Below, piece by piece: positions 53,592 through 58,650 of a DNA stretch of 64,000 nucleotides. The notes under the pieces were generated by a model, which saw only the letters and a program-made list of their open reading frames with translations, was not told the origin of the DNA and did not search any database. Source of the DNA: Candidatus Liptonbacteria bacterium (GTDB lineage: Bacteria > Patescibacteriota > Minisyncoccia > UBA6257 > 2-01-FULL-56-20); assembly GCA_023244895.1 (NCBI GenBank), contig JAHFLL010000001.1, positions 335,702 to 399,701 of the forward strand, given 5' to 3'. The stretch's first letter is position 1, and each line of letters opens with the position of its first letter. The translations under genes and the position numbers were made by a program.

Positions 53592-53617
53592 AAGTCTTTA
53601 ATTAAAATATCCACATA

Positions 53618-54091
53618 GTGATAAAAGAAAAGAGCGTACATCGGATATTTTTAGTCAGTCTTATCCTCAAAGGACTGAACGCCTTTCTGGAAATTACGGG
53701 CGGTATTCTTTTCCTTTTTACGGGAACGCTAAGCAGTGTGCTTATATTTCTTACTAAAGGAGAGCTGATTGAGGACCCGACCGATCTCCTCGCAAGCCGT
53801 CTTGTCGGTCTCATCCCCTATCTATCCGTTCATACACAATTATTTGCTTCCTTTTACTTGCTTTCGCACGGAATAATAAAGATTTTTTTGGTAGCCAATC
53901 TGCTTCGCAACAAACTCTGGGCATATCCCGCGACTATAGGATTTTTAGGACTTTTTATCCTTTACCAACTCTACCGTATCGCCTACGCTCACTCCCTGTT
54001 TCTAATCGCGCTTACCTTATTTGATATCCTTCTAATATATCTTACCTGGCACGAATACAGCCTTGTTAAAAAGCATATTTCTCTAGAATAA
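53618..54091 (+). CDS. DUF2127-like multi-TM membrane protein
   Basis: Composition and topology. Confidence 0.35.
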   Translation: MIKEKSVHRIFLVSLILKGLNAFLEITGGILFLFTGTLSSVLIFLTKGELIEDPTDLLASRLVGLIPYLSVHTQLFASFYLLSHGIIKIFLVANLLRNKLWAYPATIGFLGLFILYQLYRIAYAHSLFLIALTLFDILLIYLTWHEYSLVKKHISLE

Positions 54092-54180
54092 TACCGACGA
54101 CAAATTGATTGAAAAACCTTCTAGCCATATAATAAGGATTAAACGTGAAAGAAGTATCGTGAAGAATTAATATAAGACAT

Positions 54181-54513
54181 ATGCTTACTAAGCTTCCCGA
54201 AAGTTTGAATTCGGATGGTAAAGGCTCAGATGCGCCTCCTCGAGTGGTTCCATCTCGGATGCTGGCATTGCTTATGGCCATATTATTATCTGCCCTCTGT
54301 GCTCCAAGAGGAGTTAAACGTGCCGTTTTCAGAATGGGGATCATCGATTCCCCTTTTCCTTTCGTTACTACCTTAAGCGTGGTTGTTCTAGTCTTTTTTG
54401 TAGCGCAAATTATTGTGACCTATTCTATTATTAGAGCCCCTCTCGATATGAAATCTAAAGTTGTATTAATATTTTTCATATCTTTATTGTCTTTTATTGT
54501 CAGTGTGAACTAG
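54181..54513 (+). CDS. Hypothetical small membrane protein
   Basis: ORF only. Confidence 0.25.
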   Translation: MLTKLPESLNSDGKGSDAPPRVVPSRMLALLMAILLSALCAPRGVKRAVFRMGIIDSPFPFVTTLSVVVLVFFVAQIIVTYSIIRAPLDMKSKVVLIFFISLLSFIVSVN

Positions 54514-54623
54514 GCAATAGAATCAGAAATATACTTTTGCCCTACCACATACTTGGAGCATTTTAGGGACTCCCGAAGAGGGCGCGTCTCCCTATATTCG
54601 TAATACTAATTTATATCAACATA

Positions 54624-54652
54624 TTGACATTATGGCAATAATAGTATATAAT
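54624..54652 (+). promoter_or_regulatory. Perfect consensus sigma70-type promoter TTGACA-17-TATAAT, in host-like AT-rich DNA, driving the GC-rich secreted-protein gene
   Basis: TTGACA 54624-29, 17-nt spacer, TATAAT 54647-52. Confidence 0.6.
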
Positions 54653-54741
54653 GTACCTCGTTTGTCCTTGGGAAATGACTCCCCTGGACGGACTTCAATT
54701 CTCGGCGGCGCCTAGCGCCGCGATGCCTTGCGGAGGGCACC

Positions 54742-55644
54742 TTGAAGAACAAGCTCTTTTACACCATCGGACTCATCGTCCTCGTGGCGCTCGCGTTCGC
54801 CGCGCCGGTCTCGGCGCAGTCGAAGACGCCAACTTTCGGCAAGGGCGCGCCACGCCCCGGCATGGTGGTCGTGGAGACCGCAAGCAACCCCATCCCCGCC
54901 CTCATGACCGAGGGTCTGAAGGGCAGCATCCAGACCGGCAACGGCTGGAAGTTGCCGTACGAGATGAAGGTGCTCGTCTTCCGCGCCCGGCGGAACTGGA
55001 ACGAGGTGGCCGGCAGCTACATCGAACCCGTCGGGGAACCGATTGCGACGCTCGCAACGTGCCCCGTCCTGGTGGTGATTTCGGGCGCCTTCCAGGAGGT
55101 TCCACAGGACTGCGTCACCCGCGACGGCTACTGGACGCTCAGCAAGCGCCTGGATCAGGACTACTACATGATCCGCGTCCTCGCGAAGGGCGGATGGTAC
55201 CATCCCTCCTACCAGGAAGTCTGGAACTACCACTCCGGTGGCGTGACGGAGTTCGACACGGTTCAGCTCCAGCGGTTCAGCATCCTGGTCAGCGACTTCA
55301 CCCTCAATCGGTGGGCCGCGAACCGGGTCTACGCCGAATTCCAACTGGCGAACAACTCCGAGTGGCAGGAGCCGGTCGTGATTCGGATCAAGCTCCGTGG
55401 GCCGTCCTACACGACGATCGATGCACCCCTCGCCGACGGGCAGCCCTTCGGGGGCTGGCTGGAGCCTTGGTCTCAGACTCCGGTCTGGTACTACTTCGGT
55501 ATCCCGTCTTGGACCGGCTCCAATGGGAAAGGCAAGGTCTGCGGCCAACTCGAGATCTCGAGCGGGTGGCAGTACGATCAGGGCTGGGTCTACGCCCAGC
55601 AGGACGTCTGCATCGACGCCTACTACCGCCAGCCCAAGGGCTAG
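54742..55644 (+). CDS. Secreted hypothetical protein (Sec signal peptide) encoded by a GC-rich cassette; TTG start
   Basis: MKNKLFYTIGLIVLVALAFAAPVSAQ signal peptide; high-GC codons; RBS ggaggg. Confidence 0.5.
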   Translation: MKNKLFYTIGLIVLVALAFAAPVSAQSKTPTFGKGAPRPGMVVVETASNPIPALMTEGLKGSIQTGNGWKLPYEMKVLVFRARRNWNEVAGSYIEPVGEPIATLATCPVLVVISGAFQEVPQDCVTRDGYWTLSKRLDQDYYMIRVLAKGGWYHPSYQEVWNYHSGGVTEFDTVQLQRFSILVSDFTLNRWAANRVYAEFQLANNSEWQEPVVIRIKLRGPSYTTIDAPLADGQPFGGWLEPWSQTPVWYYFGIPSWTGSNGKGKVCGQLEISSGWQYDQGWVYAQQDVCIDAYYRQPKG

Positions 55645-55700
55645 CCGCACAAGTCCGCCGGGTAGCTGATCCCCGTTCAGATCAGCATCGTGCAACATTC

Positions 55701-55742
55701 AACAGGCCGAGGGGAGTATATCCCCCGGCCTGTTCGTTTTTT
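55701..55742. terminator. Strong bidirectional rho-independent terminator (AACAGGCCGAGGGGA..TCCCCCGGCCTGTT + CGTTTTTT)
   Basis: Read directly; sits between convergent genes. Confidence 0.65.
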
Positions 55743-56679
55743 ATAAGACTCCCAACAGGGCTTCAATTATTTTCTTATCGGCCCCTACCCTCTCCCAATC
55801 TATCTCAGCGGAAGTGTTCTGATTGAATTGAATGCCTTTTTCGGATAACCAATATATACGATTTAAAATAGCGTAAATAGTGACGATTCTTCTCTGCTCT
55901 ACATTTAGCCCTAGTCCGTCCTCTATGGCGGATGAATACTCTTCTCCGTAATGCGTGCCAAACCAGCTTGCTTTTATTCTGCCCACCGCCTCCAGTGGGT
56001 CGCCATAAGCTACTCCATCTAAATCAACCAACCCGGAGAATTTACCATCGTGAATCATTACGTTTTTCGTGCAGATATCGTCAAAATAGCAGACGGATTT
56101 AACCGTGGAGAAATATTCCTTATTTTCCTCCATTAGTTTTTCAAATATACCAATAAAACGCTCGCCGATAACCTTGGTTTTAGCGTCTCTTTCTTTTATC
56201 TTCGGAAGCATATTCCCCAGAGATTCAACCCAAGATGAAGAGGTTTTGTCTTTTAGAGGAGAATACCAGCCGAACCGTCCATTGGTAGGAACGCTTTCCA
56301 GCTTGCGGAAGATATTAACTATATCCTTAGCTATATCTTTGAGTTGCTCATCCGTGAGGTCCTGAATAACCTCTCCCATATCTCGCCCGTCAATTTTGGA
56401 TAAAATTTGATATACGAACGGAACATCTTTTTTGGAATAATCGGAGGCGATTATGTCCGGCACTTTTATACCTAAAGACTTAAAAAGTGGGATAAACTTC
56501 TCGGAAGCTTTCATCTCGTTGCCAATGGAATGAAGTCTTATGATGACGGATCTATCCGGCAAAGATACGGAATAAACCTCGTTGCAAATACCCGACTTCA
56601 TCCGCTCAATCTCAAGAGCGGGCTGATTAAGCTCTTTCTTTAATATCTGATTAATAACCTCTCTGTGGTCTGATTCCAT
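55741..56679 (-). CDS. Phosphotransferase-family (APH/ChoK-like) kinase
   Basis: DICTKNVMIHDG...LVDLDG catalytic and Mg-binding loops of PF01636. Confidence 0.6.
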   Translation of the reverse strand: MESDHREVINQILKKELNQPALEIERMKSGICNEVYSVSLPDRSVIIRLHSIGNEMKASEKFIPLFKSLGIKVPDIIASDYSKKDVPFVYQILSKIDGRDMGEVIQDLTDEQLKDIAKDIVNIFRKLESVPTNGRFGWYSPLKDKTSSSWVESLGNMLPKIKERDAKTKVIGERFIGIFEKLMEENKEYFSTVKSVCYFDDICTKNVMIHDGKFSGLVDLDGVAYGDPLEAVGRIKASWFGTHYGEEYSSAIEDGLGLNVEQRRIVTIYAILNRIYWLSEKGIQFNQNTSAEIDWERVGADKKIIEALLGVL

Positions 56680-56685
56680 TTGATA

Positions 56686-57438
56686 TTACATACCGAACAC
56701 TTTCCTTAAAATCAAAGCACTTATTATATTTCCTGCTACAACTACTACAAGGGCCACTCCGACGTACCAAAAAAATTTAACCCAGAAGGTTTCCTGTGGC
56801 ACAAGCTGGCCAGACACAGATTTAAAATTACTTGATTCCCCTATGTTTCCGGTGAAGTTTTCAATATGTTGAATTTGATATCTTGGTTTTACTTCTTTCG
56901 CATCTGCAACATCTTTAGCCGAGAACTCAGAAGGTTCATCCGGAACCCCGGCTTTCTTTAGATTTATGCTCCAATCTAGAATGATATTTCTGACGTGCTC
57001 GATAATACCTACCACCGCCGCTCTATCTATGGATAGTTGAATATCTATGTCGTACCTGATGCTTTTCCTCAATTGAGCCTCAACATCTGGAGGATACTTA
57101 ACAGCGAGAGAGCCTTTGTCGCTTTTCAAAATTTCTTCAAGCTGACCCACGGACTGACCGATTCCCCTGCTCGAAATAATTTCCTGACTTTTAGGGTCGT
57201 TGTTAAAATATGGTATCCATCCCCTATATGGATTATGTCCTTGGGGTATTCCCTTTATCACACGATACTCGGGAACTTTATCGTCTTTTGAGTATCCATT
57301 TAGCTCCTTATCTAGCCAGCTAATGAAATCATTCTGATTTAAGTTTGAAGCAACGATTTTTGCCTCCCTGAGCAATGTTGACACCTTTACATCACTATCG
57401 TTCGCCATCCTTTGTATCTCTATGATATTAGGTTTCAT
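56686..57438 (-). CDS. AbiTii-like abortive-infection-type protein with a C-terminal TM anchor (tentative)
   Basis: N-terminal LLREAKIVASNLNQNDFISWLDKELNGY...VPEYRVIKG resembles the AbiTii domain signature as recalled; C-terminal hydrophobic helix. Confidence 0.35.
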   Translation of the reverse strand: MKPNIIEIQRMANDSDVKVSTLLREAKIVASNLNQNDFISWLDKELNGYSKDDKVPEYRVIKGIPQGHNPYRGWIPYFNNDPKSQEIISSRGIGQSVGQLEEILKSDKGSLAVKYPPDVEAQLRKSIRYDIDIQLSIDRAAVVGIIEHVRNIILDWSINLKKAGVPDEPSEFSAKDVADAKEVKPRYQIQHIENFTGNIGESSNFKSVSGQLVPQETFWVKFFWYVGVALVVVVAGNIISALILRKVFGM

Positions 57439-57579
57439 AAAATATTTTCCAAACTAGACATCTCATTGAGAGCGACTAGATATTTAAGTCAATTAAAATC
57501 CTACTCCTTCCGTATGGATTGACAAGGGGCCGAAAACTACCTACTACTCACTACCTACTTTCCCCTGTATAATACCCCG

Positions 57580-58344
57580 GTGTTTAATTTCAAATCAGCC
57601 GAGCAATTCAAGGAAGAGTGCGGATACGACATAGACGGAGTTTGGTACCCGCGCGTGACTAAAATCGTTTCCATCAAATCCAAACCCGCGCTTTTCAATT
57701 TCTACGCGGAGATGAAGAGCGTGAAGGCGGGCCAGGCGGTTTCGGAACAGTCCGCCCAGGAAGGAACTATGATTCATACCGCCGTGGAGGCGCTTCTTTT
57801 GGGCCAGATAGACGTAGAGATACCCGACATAATCCGCCCGGCGGTGGAAGGATTTATTAAGTTTAGCGAAAAGAACCATATTGAAACCGAGCACGACTTC
57901 GTAGAACGCAGAATTATAAGCTACGAGCACCGCTATGCCGGAACGGTGGATGCTATCGCCAAAATCGGCGGGAAGCGCGGCGTGCTGGACATCAAAACTT
58001 CCCAGGCAATCTACCGGGATTACAACCTCCAAACTGCCGCCTACTTCGCCTCGCTCAAAGACAGTTTTGAAGATTTGGAAACACGCTGGATTTTGCGCAT
58101 TGACCAGAACCAATTCTGCACTCGTTGCGGCTCCAAGCGCCGGGTAAAAGGCGGGCGCGAAAAGATAAAACCGAACGGTCATATGAGTTGTCCGCCCAAA
58201 GAACACGCCTGGTCCGAAATAAAAGCAGAAATAGAAATAAAAGAATTCCCCTCCTGGCAATCCGACTTTGAAGCCTTCCTCGCTGCCAAGCGCCTCTGGG
58301 AATGGGAGAATGAGTATTGGCTAAAACAAATCGGCTACCTTTAA
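57580..58344 (+). CDS. PD-(D/E)XK family nuclease (RecB/YqaJ-like) with a C-terminal zinc ribbon
   Basis: GTVDAIAKIGGKRGVLDIKTS (D..DxK), CTRCGS...CPPKEH; GTG start 6 nt after TGTATAAT. Confidence 0.55.
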   Translation: MFNFKSAEQFKEECGYDIDGVWYPRVTKIVSIKSKPALFNFYAEMKSVKAGQAVSEQSAQEGTMIHTAVEALLLGQIDVEIPDIIRPAVEGFIKFSEKNHIETEHDFVERRIISYEHRYAGTVDAIAKIGGKRGVLDIKTSQAIYRDYNLQTAAYFASLKDSFEDLETRWILRIDQNQFCTRCGSKRRVKGGREKIKPNGHMSCPPKEHAWSEIKAEIEIKEFPSWQSDFEAFLAAKRLWEWENEYWLKQIGYL

Positions 58345-58379
58345 CTAGGGTTTAGTTATTAGTCTTTAGGACCTAGCCA

Positions 58380-58415
58380 CTCCACGATAATTAACGATCG
58401 TTAATTATCGTGGAG
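58380..58415. repeat. 36-bp perfect palindromic element, copy 2 (CTCCACGATAATTAACGATCGTTAATTATCGTGGAG)
   Basis: Read directly, 36 nt after the stop of the PD-(D/E)XK gene; same flanks as copy 1 (CCA..TT). Confidence 0.7.
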
Positions 58416-58650
58416 TTAATGAGGGAACAAAGGGGAAGGGACAGAGCGTCGCCTTGTTCTACCTATTGCCATTTGCTTTTCGCCTACTGATTACATTCGC
58501 TGCACTTCTCTATAATGATTGGGCTTCGGCTTGAGCTCTGACTATATAAATATCCGGAGCCAAAGCTTAGAACGGCCACCAGGAACAAAATAAGACCCCA
58601 AAATAGCTCTTTTTCGTGCCCTCGGCGCCACTCCCCCGCCTCTTGCCAGA

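What the first reader, a model, noticed from the sequence alone, without database searches (positions are those of the whole stretch)
55741..58344. Defence-like trio: APH-type kinase, AbiTii-like membrane-anchored protein, PD-(D/E)XK nuclease
Convergent with the secreted-protein cassette and bounded by the second palindromic element are three genes. The first is a phosphotransferase-family kinase. The second is a 250-aa protein whose N-terminus resembles the AbiTii abortive-infection domain and which ends in a TM helix. The third is a RecB-like PD-(D/E)XK nuclease with a zinc ribbon. Kinase/Abi/nuclease combinations are typical of phage-defence islands. The AbiTii assignment is from memory of the ELNGY...P.YR signature and needs confirmation.
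Basis: partly seen in the sequence, partly recalled or inferred. Interest (0 to 1): 0.55.

Follow-up and report, generated by a model that had tools for sequence, protein, structure and literature searches.

The report
Lone membrane-anchored AbiTii gene, not trio
The three genes are real and correctly named, but they are not a unit: only the middle one is a phage-defence-type (AbiT-family) protein, here an unusual version with a membrane anchor, while the nuclease is a conserved core gene and the kinase an unrelated accessory gene.

Summary
All three ORFs exist as described. The domain calls hold: APH-family kinase (PF01636, E=3e-17), AbiTii domain (PF18864, E=1e-41; PADLOC AbiTii, E=3e-45) plus a C-terminal TM helix, and a RecB/MGME1-like PD-(D/E)XK exonuclease with a CxxC...C/H-H insert.

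The "trio" reading fails. The nuclease occurs in at least 429 Patescibacteria species genomes. In 63 of 80 fetched loci it lies directly downstream of murC, within a conserved housekeeping block. None of those 80 loci carries the AbiTii gene or the kinase. Conversely, 0 of 80 AbiTii loci and 0 of 4 kinase neighbourhoods show the other two genes.

In this genome a roughly 4 kb, compositionally atypical islet (53592-57579) has been inserted between murC and the nuclease. It carries DUF2127, a small ORF, a 64% GC secreted-protein ORF, the kinase and AbiTii.

The AbiTii protein is a rare ~250-aa variant. It has the AbiTii domain, the N-terminal motif of AbiTi, and a true TM helix where most relatives carry a fused AbiTi helical body. 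It is most likely a stand-alone, tail-anchored abortive-infection-type protein. That function and mechanism are inferred, not tested.

The parts
56686..57438 (-). Gene for a 250-aa tail-anchored AbiTii-domain protein, the only defence-type gene of the three
   Evidence: PF18864 E=1e-41 and PADLOC AbiTii E=3.4e-45. 20 homologs in 5.8 billion clusters. AF2 mean pLDDT 77.
56890..57423 (-). AbiTii alpha+beta domain (residues 6-183), with invariant E45, G48, Y58, R59 and W74
   Evidence: AF2 secondary-structure elements span residues 5-162, with block-mean pLDDT mostly 76-93. No PDB fold match.
56809..56883 (-). AbiTi N-terminal motif fused in cis (residues 186-210, YQIQHIENFTGNIGESS...)
   Evidence: An HMM of AbiTi and AbiTi-like tails scores 8.6-17 bits in 17 of 17 TM-form proteins, against a maximum of 4.7 bits in 340 shuffles. 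hhalign probability 94%, E=8.5e-8.
56695..56787 (-). C-terminal transmembrane helix (residues 218-248), conserved in the subfamily with a nearly invariant G236-N237 pair
   Evidence: KD19 2.4-3.1 in all the ~250-aa forms, against about 0.7-1.7 in the ~300-aa forms. AF2 helix. Alignment.
55741..56679 (-). APH-family small-molecule kinase gene, an unrelated accessory gene 6 nt downstream of AbiTii
   Evidence: PF01636. No PADLOC hit. PDB profile: hygromycin-B 4-O-kinase E=2e-6. Four unrelated neighbourhoods elsewhere.
57580..58344 (+). Lineage-core MGME1/RecB-like PD-(D/E)XK exonuclease gene with a CxxC...H insert; not part of the defence gene's unit
   Evidence: More than 2,000 homologs at 60-69% identity. 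At least 429 species genomes. Follows murC in 63 of 80 loci. Foldseek MGME1 probability 1.0.
53592..57579 (.). Variable islet of about 4 kb inserted between murC and the nuclease gene (DUF2127, orf110, high-GC secreted ORF, kinase, AbiTii)
   Evidence: None of the five genes is present in 80 syntenic loci. GC is 0.40-0.41, or 0.64 for the secreted ORF, against 0.45-0.50 in the flanks. The closest relative has a different 5.9 kb insert at the same junction.
55701..55743 (.). Hairpin plus T-run between the convergent secreted-protein ORF and kinase gene; a likely bidirectional terminator
   Evidence: dG -28.4 and -27.0 kcal/mol, z -5.3 and -4.8 on the two strands.
57439..57579 (.). Divergent intergenic region between AbiTii(-) and the nuclease(+); weak promoter-like sites only
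   Evidence: Minus-strand TTGTCA-16-TAGGAT, 9 of 12 matches. TGTATAAT lies 6 nt before the nuclease GTG (sequence).
58379..58416 (.). 38-bp perfect palindrome downstream of the nuclease gene, a repeated element of this genome and not a boundary of a defence unit
   Evidence: Second copy at 2559-2596; 0 expected by chance. dG -28.1 kcal/mol, z -7.2.

Best explanation
The locus is a small variable islet, not a three-gene system. The genome is a Liptonbacteria/Paceibacteria-type Patescibacteria (CPR) genome.

Shown: in this lineage the ancestral arrangement is murC followed directly by a core MGME1/RecB-like exonuclease gene. In this genome about 4 kb of foreign-looking DNA has been inserted between them. 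The insert carries five unrelated accessory genes, including an APH-family kinase and an AbiTii-domain gene. The AbiTii gene moves on its own between genomes.

Shown: the AbiTii protein has an N-terminal AbiTii domain, then the short N-terminal motif of AbiTi, a disordered linker, and one hydrophobic C-terminal helix. This contrasts with the canonical two-gene AbiT (AbiTi plus AbiTii) and with the dominant single-chain AbiTii-AbiTi fusions.

Inferred: the protein is a single-gene abortive-infection-type defence protein. The cytoplasmic AbiTii domain would sense a phage product, and the tail-anchored helix would localise the protein to the membrane and possibly disrupt it, killing or arresting the infected cell. 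The kinase is most likely a small-molecule (antibiotic-like substrate) phosphotransferase. The nuclease is most likely a housekeeping DNA-end-processing exonuclease.
For: Domain identity.

Nuclease is core and syntenic: more than 2,070 homologs at 60-69% identity; at least 429 species genomes; murC is immediately upstream in 63 of 80 loci and rpmA/rplI/ctpA/def/fmt are downstream in 25-37 of 80.

Islet: AbiTii, kinase, DUF2127, orf110 and the secreted ORF are found in 0 of 80 loci. Composition is atypical. The closest relative has a different insert at the same junction.

Independence of the genes: AbiTii homologs at 50-70% identity sit in four unrelated contexts. Kinase and nuclease are absent from all 80 metagenomic AbiTii loci, and no neighbour is shared among the 17 TM-form loci. 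Four kinase contexts are unrelated to each other, and one comes from the same genome as the closest relative.

Defence affiliation of the AbiTii family: 122 plasmids carry AbiTii-domain genes, and one copy lies between an Abi family gene, a VapC toxin-antitoxin pair and CBASS. Other family members are embedded in type I R-M operons or paired with AbiTi. AbiT is an experimentally shown two-component Abi system (PMC13064643). The AbiTii domain has been proposed as an N-terminal module fused to HEPN effector domains (PMC3710099).

Architecture: TM helix; AbiTi N-motif; 64 of 104 near relatives carry a fused AbiTi module, while the window protein does not.
Against: No experiment exists for any AbiTii protein outside Lactococcus, and none for the TM form. 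The molecular mechanism of AbiT itself is unknown (PMC13064643).

The TM helix could be only an anchor, with no effector role. Its homology to AbiTi's C-terminal helix is not statistically supported.

No AbiTi partner is present, and both genes make up lactococcal AbiT.

The TM-form neighbourhoods are mostly ordinary genes rather than recognisable defence islands.

AbiTii and the kinase share low GC and a 6-nt spacing, so co-transcription and co-acquisition in this genome cannot be excluded.
Confidence: 0.62

Rival explanations
1. One reading: kinase, AbiTii protein and nuclease form one three-gene defence system or defence island.
For: Physical adjacency in the window. AbiTii is a defence-family domain. 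The nuclease gives weak Cas4-model hits.
Against: The nuclease is a lineage-core gene in housekeeping synteny and is divergently transcribed. AbiTii and kinase are absent from all 80 nuclease loci. Kinase and nuclease are absent from all 80 AbiTii loci. The kinase has no PADLOC hit. The flanking genes are murC, rpmA, rplI, ctpA, def and fmt.
Confidence: 0.03
2. AbiTii-TM and the APH kinase form a lineage-specific two-gene operon, with the kinase acting as effector or regulator in place of AbiTi.
For: Same strand, 6-nt gap, no intervening terminator. Similar low GC, 0.40 and 0.41. Canonical AbiT is a two-gene system (PMC13064643).
Against: The pairing is seen only in this organism. L001 and L002 encode 100% identical proteins, so they are not independent. 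There is no kinase next to AbiTii in 84 other loci and no AbiTii next to the kinase in 4 loci. The kinase family is widespread as a stand-alone gene in several phyla. Tight spacing to unrelated genes is the norm here.
Confidence: 0.07
3. The AbiTii-TM protein is not an antiphage protein. It is a membrane-anchored protein with another role, for example a mobile-element or addiction function, or a surface or epibiont-related function.
For: TM-form homologs lie among ordinary genes, even inside a ribosomal-protein operon and after dnaK. One lies two genes from a rolling-circle Rep gene. There is no structural or functional precedent. Only 4 distant non-TM copies occur in IMG/VR.
Against: Strong, full-length match to the AbiTii defence domain with its conserved Glu. 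Patchy, mobile distribution typical of defence genes. Family members occur in R-M operons, in AbiT pairs and in a plasmid defence island.
Confidence: 0.2

Closest known systems
AbiT of Lactococcus lactis (AbiTi 127 aa + AbiTii 213 aa; Bouchard et al. 2002, as summarised in PMC13064643)
   Same: Full-length AbiTii domain with the conserved glutamate. It also carries the N-terminal motif of AbiTi.
   Different: One gene instead of two. The AbiTi helical body (PADLOC AbiTi profile positions ~27-113) is missing, and a true TM helix stands in its place. The host is a CPR bacterium. No phenotype is known.
Single-chain AbiTii-AbiTi fusions of about 300 aa (e.g. P0016; plasmid copies in Rhizobium, Pantoea, Aeromonas, Klebsiella)
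   Same: Same N-terminal domain and linker motif. Single-gene architecture. The tail ends in a helix containing a G-N pair.
   Different: The fusions carry a helical AbiTi body of about 50 extra residues and a weakly hydrophobic, Gly/Ala-rich tail (KD about 0.7-1.7). The window form is shorter and strongly hydrophobic (KD 2.65).
AbiTii-HEPN fusions (c2405 and Ymh families; Anantharaman et al. 2013, PMC3710099)
   Same: N-terminal AbiTii domain followed by a C-terminal output module.
   Different: No HEPN domain here. The output module is a single TM helix.
Membrane-anchored single-gene Abi proteins (AbiP, AbiC, AbiZ; PMC13064643)
   Same: Single-gene Abi proteins whose TM segment is needed (AbiP) or which act on membrane permeability (AbiZ). 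They are a functional analogy for a TM-dependent Abi.
   Different: No sequence relationship. AbiP's anchor is N-terminal. The analogy is only inferred.
MGME1 / RecE / Cas4 (RecB-type PD-(D/E)XK exonucleases), for the nuclease
   Same: Same fold and catalytic motifs.
   Different: About 13-15% identity. It has its own CxxC...H insert and lacks the Cas4 four-Cys cluster pattern. It is a core gene following murC in Patescibacteria, with no CRISPR context.
APH(4)-Ia hygromycin-B kinase and APH(2'') enzymes, for the kinase
   Same: APH fold, with conserved catalytic-loop Asp/Asn and Mg-binding Asp.
   Different: Far below every NCBIfam resistance-enzyme cutoff (26.6 bits against 205). The substrate is unknown.

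Membership tests
AbiT abortive-infection system (two-component) | AbiTii domain (PF18864 / PADLOC PDLC02334) with conserved glutamate | tested here: met
   143.7 bits against a cutoff of 27.6; PADLOC E=3.4e-45. E45 is invariant in 104 sequences.
AbiT abortive-infection system (two-component) | AbiTi partner (PADLOC PDLC02333), as a separate gene or fused | tested here: not met
   The window protein has no AbiTi hit at E<=0.01, or at E<=1. No AbiTi-like ORF appears in the six-frame translation of the window. Only the ~25-residue AbiTi N-motif is present.
AbiT abortive-infection system (two-component) | Abortive-infection phenotype against phage | not testable with these tools
   Needs expression and phage challenge. 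No cultured host or phage is available for this lineage.
AbiTii-HEPN fusion proteins (c2405 / Ymh) | C-terminal HEPN domain | tested here: not met
   Only 67 residues follow the AbiTii domain. No Pfam or PADLOC HEPN hit. AF2 shows a linker and one helix.
Multi-gene defence system or island (kinase + Abi + nuclease) | Conserved co-occurrence of the component genes across genomes | tested here: not met
   0 of 80 nuclease loci have AbiTii or the kinase. 0 of 80 AbiTii loci have the kinase or the nuclease. 0 of 4 kinase contexts have either.
APH phosphotransferase family (PF01636) | Family HMM above its cutoff, and catalytic Asp/Asn plus metal-binding Asp | tested here: met
   63.7 bits against 23.2. 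D201, N206 and D221 are invariant.
Aminoglycoside-resistance APH equivalogs (NCBIfam) | Score above the equivalog cutoff | tested here: not met
   Best hit is APH(3'), 26.6 bits against 205.
RecB-type PD-(D/E)XK nucleases (MGME1/RecE/Cas4 fold) | D...D-x-K and Q-x3-Y motifs, and the fold | tested here: met
   D124, D137-x-K139 and Q151-x3-Y155 are invariant. PHROG 298 E=1.1e-24. Foldseek MGME1 probability 1.0. The Pfam PDDEXK_1 score is below its cutoff (15.9 against 22).
Cas4 | Family HMM above its cutoff, the four-Cys Fe-S cluster pattern, and CRISPR-cas neighbourhood | tested here: not met
   TIGR00372 17.5 bits against 65. Only C180 and C183 are invariant cysteines. The neighbours are murC and rpmA.

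The most novel reading that the evidence does not exclude
The 250-aa protein is a minimal single-chain AbiT. In it, the AbiTi helical body has been replaced by, or evolved into, a membrane-spanning helix. This would imply that the output of AbiT-family systems is membrane-directed, with the weakly hydrophobic, Gly/Ala-rich AbiTi tail as the membrane-active element. It would also imply that two-gene AbiT, single-chain AbiTii-AbiTi fusions and this TM form are one modular family, and it would give Patescibacteria a lineage-specific Abi gene.
Probability: 0.2. Interest if true: 0.5.

Novelty: new variant of a known kind. Interest (0 to 1): 0.3.

Why it matters
Very few defence systems have been identified in Patescibacteria genomes (PMC12366544). 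The mechanism of AbiT has been unknown since 2002 (PMC13064643).

A naturally occurring AbiTii protein whose only output module is a transmembrane helix suggests a testable hypothesis: membrane targeting. The finding that most AbiTii relatives are AbiTii-AbiTi fusions adds to this. The short form also offers a compact construct for experiments.

The correction has practical value. Adjacency in these tightly packed genomes is not evidence of a system. A Cas4-like nuclease next to an Abi gene can be a core housekeeping gene.

Tried and rejected
- PDB sequence search with the single nuclease and kinase sequences found nothing useful. Profile searches were needed.
- Foldseek of the AbiTii model against the PDB gave no match with E<=0.001.
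- tblastn against plasmids did not retrieve lactococcal AbiT. The original AbiT papers are not in the held library. The AbiTi identity therefore rests on the PADLOC AbiTi model.
- Homology of the TM helix to AbiTi's C-terminal helix: MAFFT aligns the G-N pair, but HMM and hhalign give no significant score for that segment. I treat it as unproven.
- The 42-nt direct repeat 54620/58647 was considered as a possible mobile-element boundary. I rejected this: both copies are near-consensus sigma-70 promoters.
- The palindrome was considered as the boundary of a defence unit. I rejected this: it lies beyond the core nuclease gene and is a dispersed repeat. It is absent from all 182 fetched loci.
- The IMG/VR scan found only 4 distant, non-TM AbiTii copies, so there is no evidence that the TM form is phage-borne.
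Full report
OBSERVATION

The first two are co-directional with a 6-nt gap. The third is divergent across a 141-nt spacer.

- Kinase: a clear APH-family member. PF01636 scores 63.7 bits against a cutoff of 23.2. The catalytic-loop D201/N206 and the metal-binding D221 are invariant.
- Middle protein: matches Pfam AbiTii (PF18864) over residues 6-183 at E=1e-41, and the PADLOC AbiTii model at E=3.4e-45. The recalled ELNGY...P.YR signature is real: E45, L46, G48, Y49, P56, Y58 and R59 are invariant and N47 nearly so. The C-terminus is strongly hydrophobic (Kyte-Doolittle 2.65). AlphaFold2 models it as a single helix at 218-248 after a disordered linker.
- Nuclease: misses the Pfam cutoffs. It matches PHROG 298 'exonuclease' at E=1.1e-24. 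It has invariant D124, D137-x-K139 and Q151-x3-Y155. Structurally it is closest to human MGME1, then RecE and Cas4. The zinc-ribbon-like insert has invariant C180-x2-C183 and H209, plus a variable Cys/His.

ARE THE THREE GENES A UNIT? NO.

The three gene families have very different population structures.

- The nuclease has more than 2,070 relatives of uniform length at 60-69% identity. It is encoded in at least 429 species-level Patescibacteria genomes.
- The kinase has 413 relatives spread over Patescibacteria, Gammaproteobacteria and Acidobacteria.
- The AbiTii-TM protein has only 20 relatives in that search.

I fetched 80 nuclease loci and mapped the window's genes onto them.

- murC lies immediately upstream, on the same strand, in 63 of 80 loci, often with a gap under 60 nt.
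- A small TM ORF, rpmA, rplI, ctpA, orf86, def and fmt follow in the window's order in 25-37 of 80 loci. Many of the remaining loci are cut by contig ends.
- AbiTii, the kinase, DUF2127, orf110 and the secreted-protein ORF are found in 0 of 80 loci.

The nuclease is therefore a lineage-core gene in housekeeping synteny. Window 53592-57579 is an insertion between murC and the nuclease.

- The closest relative (L010, nuclease 87% identical, Candidatus Liptonbacteria) carries a different 5.9 kb insert at the same junction.
- The islet is compositionally atypical. DUF2127, orf110, the kinase and AbiTii are 0.40-0.41 GC, which is the lowest ~3% of 750-nt windows. The secreted ORF is 0.64 GC with GC3 0.88. 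The flanks are 0.45-0.50 GC.

The reverse tests agree.

- AbiTii homologs at 50-70% identity sit next to a GDSL lipase gene, next to an asparaginase gene and near a rolling-circle Rep gene, between secY and adk inside a ribosomal-protein operon, and 6 nt after dnaK.
- Among 80 metagenomic AbiTii loci, none has the kinase or the nuclease within 5 kb. The 17 TM-form loci share no neighbour.
- The kinase's closest homolog (76% identity) is in the same genome as L010, but on another contig beside Dus, a methyltransferase and an HTH gene. Three further kinase neighbourhoods are all different.
- The kinase has no PADLOC hit.
- The 6-nt spacing is ordinary for these compact genomes.

WHAT THE AbiTii PROTEIN IS

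The AbiTii family is large: 6,831 representative clusters at E<=1e-3. It occurs on 122 plasmids. One copy lies between an Abi family gene, a VapC toxin-antitoxin pair and CBASS.

Among the fetched relatives I found four architectures.

(a) Proteins of about 212 aa with a partner of about 125 aa located 11-13 nt upstream. The partner is a full-length AbiTi by the PADLOC model (E=1.1e-43). This is canonical two-gene AbiT.

(b) Single-chain proteins of about 300 aa that are AbiTii-AbiTi fusions. P0016 has AbiTii at 3-187 and AbiTi at 212-298 (E=1.2e-7). In total, 64 of 104 near relatives hit AbiTi.

(c) Forms of about 310 aa embedded between the upstream and downstream genes of type I R-M-like operons. 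This agrees with the R-M-embedded HEPN fusions described by Anantharaman et al. 2013 (PMC3710099).

(d) The window's ~250-aa form, which is rare: about 18 of 169 proteins examined.

Form (d) keeps the AbiTii domain and the first ~25 residues of AbiTi. For that motif, the HMM scores 8.6-17 bits in 17 of 17 proteins against a maximum of 4.7 bits in 340 shuffles, and hhalign gives 94% probability, E=8.5e-8. It lacks the AbiTi helical body and ends in a true TM helix. Whether that helix derives from AbiTi's C-terminal, Gly/Ala-rich helix is unproven. No separate AbiTi ORF exists in the window. The AbiTii domain model has no PDB fold neighbour, in line with the 2026 review (PMC13064643).

MECHANISM (inferred)

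AbiT is an experimentally established two-component Abi system. Its escape mutations map to the major capsid protein and to early genes, and its molecular mechanism is unknown (PMC13064643). The AbiTii domain was proposed as an N-terminal module attached to interchangeable effector domains (PMC3710099).

By analogy, I propose three things. The cytoplasmic AbiTii domain recognises a phage product. The C-terminal helix tethers the protein to the membrane and possibly perturbs it. The result is arrest or death of the infected cell. Membrane-anchored single-gene Abi proteins such as AbiP and AbiZ provide a precedent for TM-dependent Abi action (PMC13064643).

The genomic and architectural statements are shown. 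The sensing and membrane steps are inference.

THE OTHER TWO GENES

The kinase is closest by profile to hygromycin-B 4-O-kinase and APH(2'') enzymes. It falls far below every resistance-enzyme cutoff. It is most likely a small-molecule phosphotransferase of unknown substrate.

The nuclease is an MGME1/RecB-like exonuclease, conserved after murC across Paceibacteria-type CPR genomes. It is most likely a housekeeping DNA-end-processing enzyme, and it is uncharacterised in its own right.

VERDICT

Interest is modest.

Noticed in passing
window 58379-58416 and 2559-2596: A 38-bp perfect palindrome (ACTCCACGATAATTAACGATCGTTAATTATCGTGGAGT) occurs twice in the window, the second copy with 1 mismatch; 0 copies are expected by chance. 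It forms a very stable hairpin (z = -7.2). Two short-read contigs of the same organism (L001, L002) end about 64 nt past the nuclease stop, which is inside this element, as expected for a dispersed repeat. It is absent from all 182 fetched loci.
   Followed up: partly
window 54742-55644 (+), antisense ORF 54712-55698 (-): A 300-aa ORF that looks as if it starts with a signal peptide sits in a 64% GC patch (GC3 0.88) within a 48% GC window. It has no Pfam, PADLOC or PHROG family hit at E<=0.01. It is driven by a perfect TTGACA-17-TATAAT promoter at 54624-54652. Public gene calls chose the antisense 328-aa ORF instead. It looks like a recent foreign acquisition.
   Followed up: partly
L010 2053-8001; also L028, L033, L018 and others (gap between murC and the nuclease gene): The murC-nuclease junction and the nuclease-rpmA junction are recurrent insertion hotspots in this lineage. 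Gaps range from under 60 nt to about 6-7 kb, with different cargo in different genomes.
   Followed up: partly
P0016, P0262 and others; L158 and L167 partner ORFs: Most close AbiTii relatives (64 of 104) are single-chain AbiTii-AbiTi fusions. The AbiTi module consists of an N-motif 'NxxGxVxxxQIQQ', a helical body, and a Gly/Ala/Ser-rich C-terminal helix. It also occurs on other N-terminal domains (282-aa and 328-aa proteins in L167), and it resembles the tail of the PADLOC candidate family PDC-M14B. I did not see this in the papers I read. The 2026 review instead assigns AbiTi an endoribonuclease-like fold.
   Followed up: partly
L114, L115, L117, L123, L144-L147: AbiTii-domain proteins of about 305-312 aa are embedded in what look like type I restriction-modification operons. 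A 483-aa HsdS-like gene lies immediately downstream, a ~600-aa gene lies upstream, and a 977-aa HsdR-like gene lies further down. The R-M subunit names were inferred from sequence and size and were not HMM-tested.
   Followed up: no
L007 / L008 5334-9735: In a Minisyncoccia genome the AbiTii-TM gene and several small unknown ORFs are inserted inside the ribosomal-protein operon, between secY and adk. S5 is followed directly by L15, with no L30 gene between them. To my knowledge, absence of L30 is a CPR hallmark.
   Followed up: no
window 57565-57582: The nuclease gene starts with GTG only 6 nt after an extended -10-like TGTATAAT. This suggests a leaderless or very short-leader transcript, created after the insertion separated the gene from murC.
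   Followed up: no
window 57580-58344 and at least 429 genomes: The MGME1-like exonuclease with a CxxC...H insert is a near-universal, uncharacterised core gene of Paceibacteria-type Patescibacteria, and it is almost always placed right after murC. It may deserve study in its own right.
   Followed up: partly
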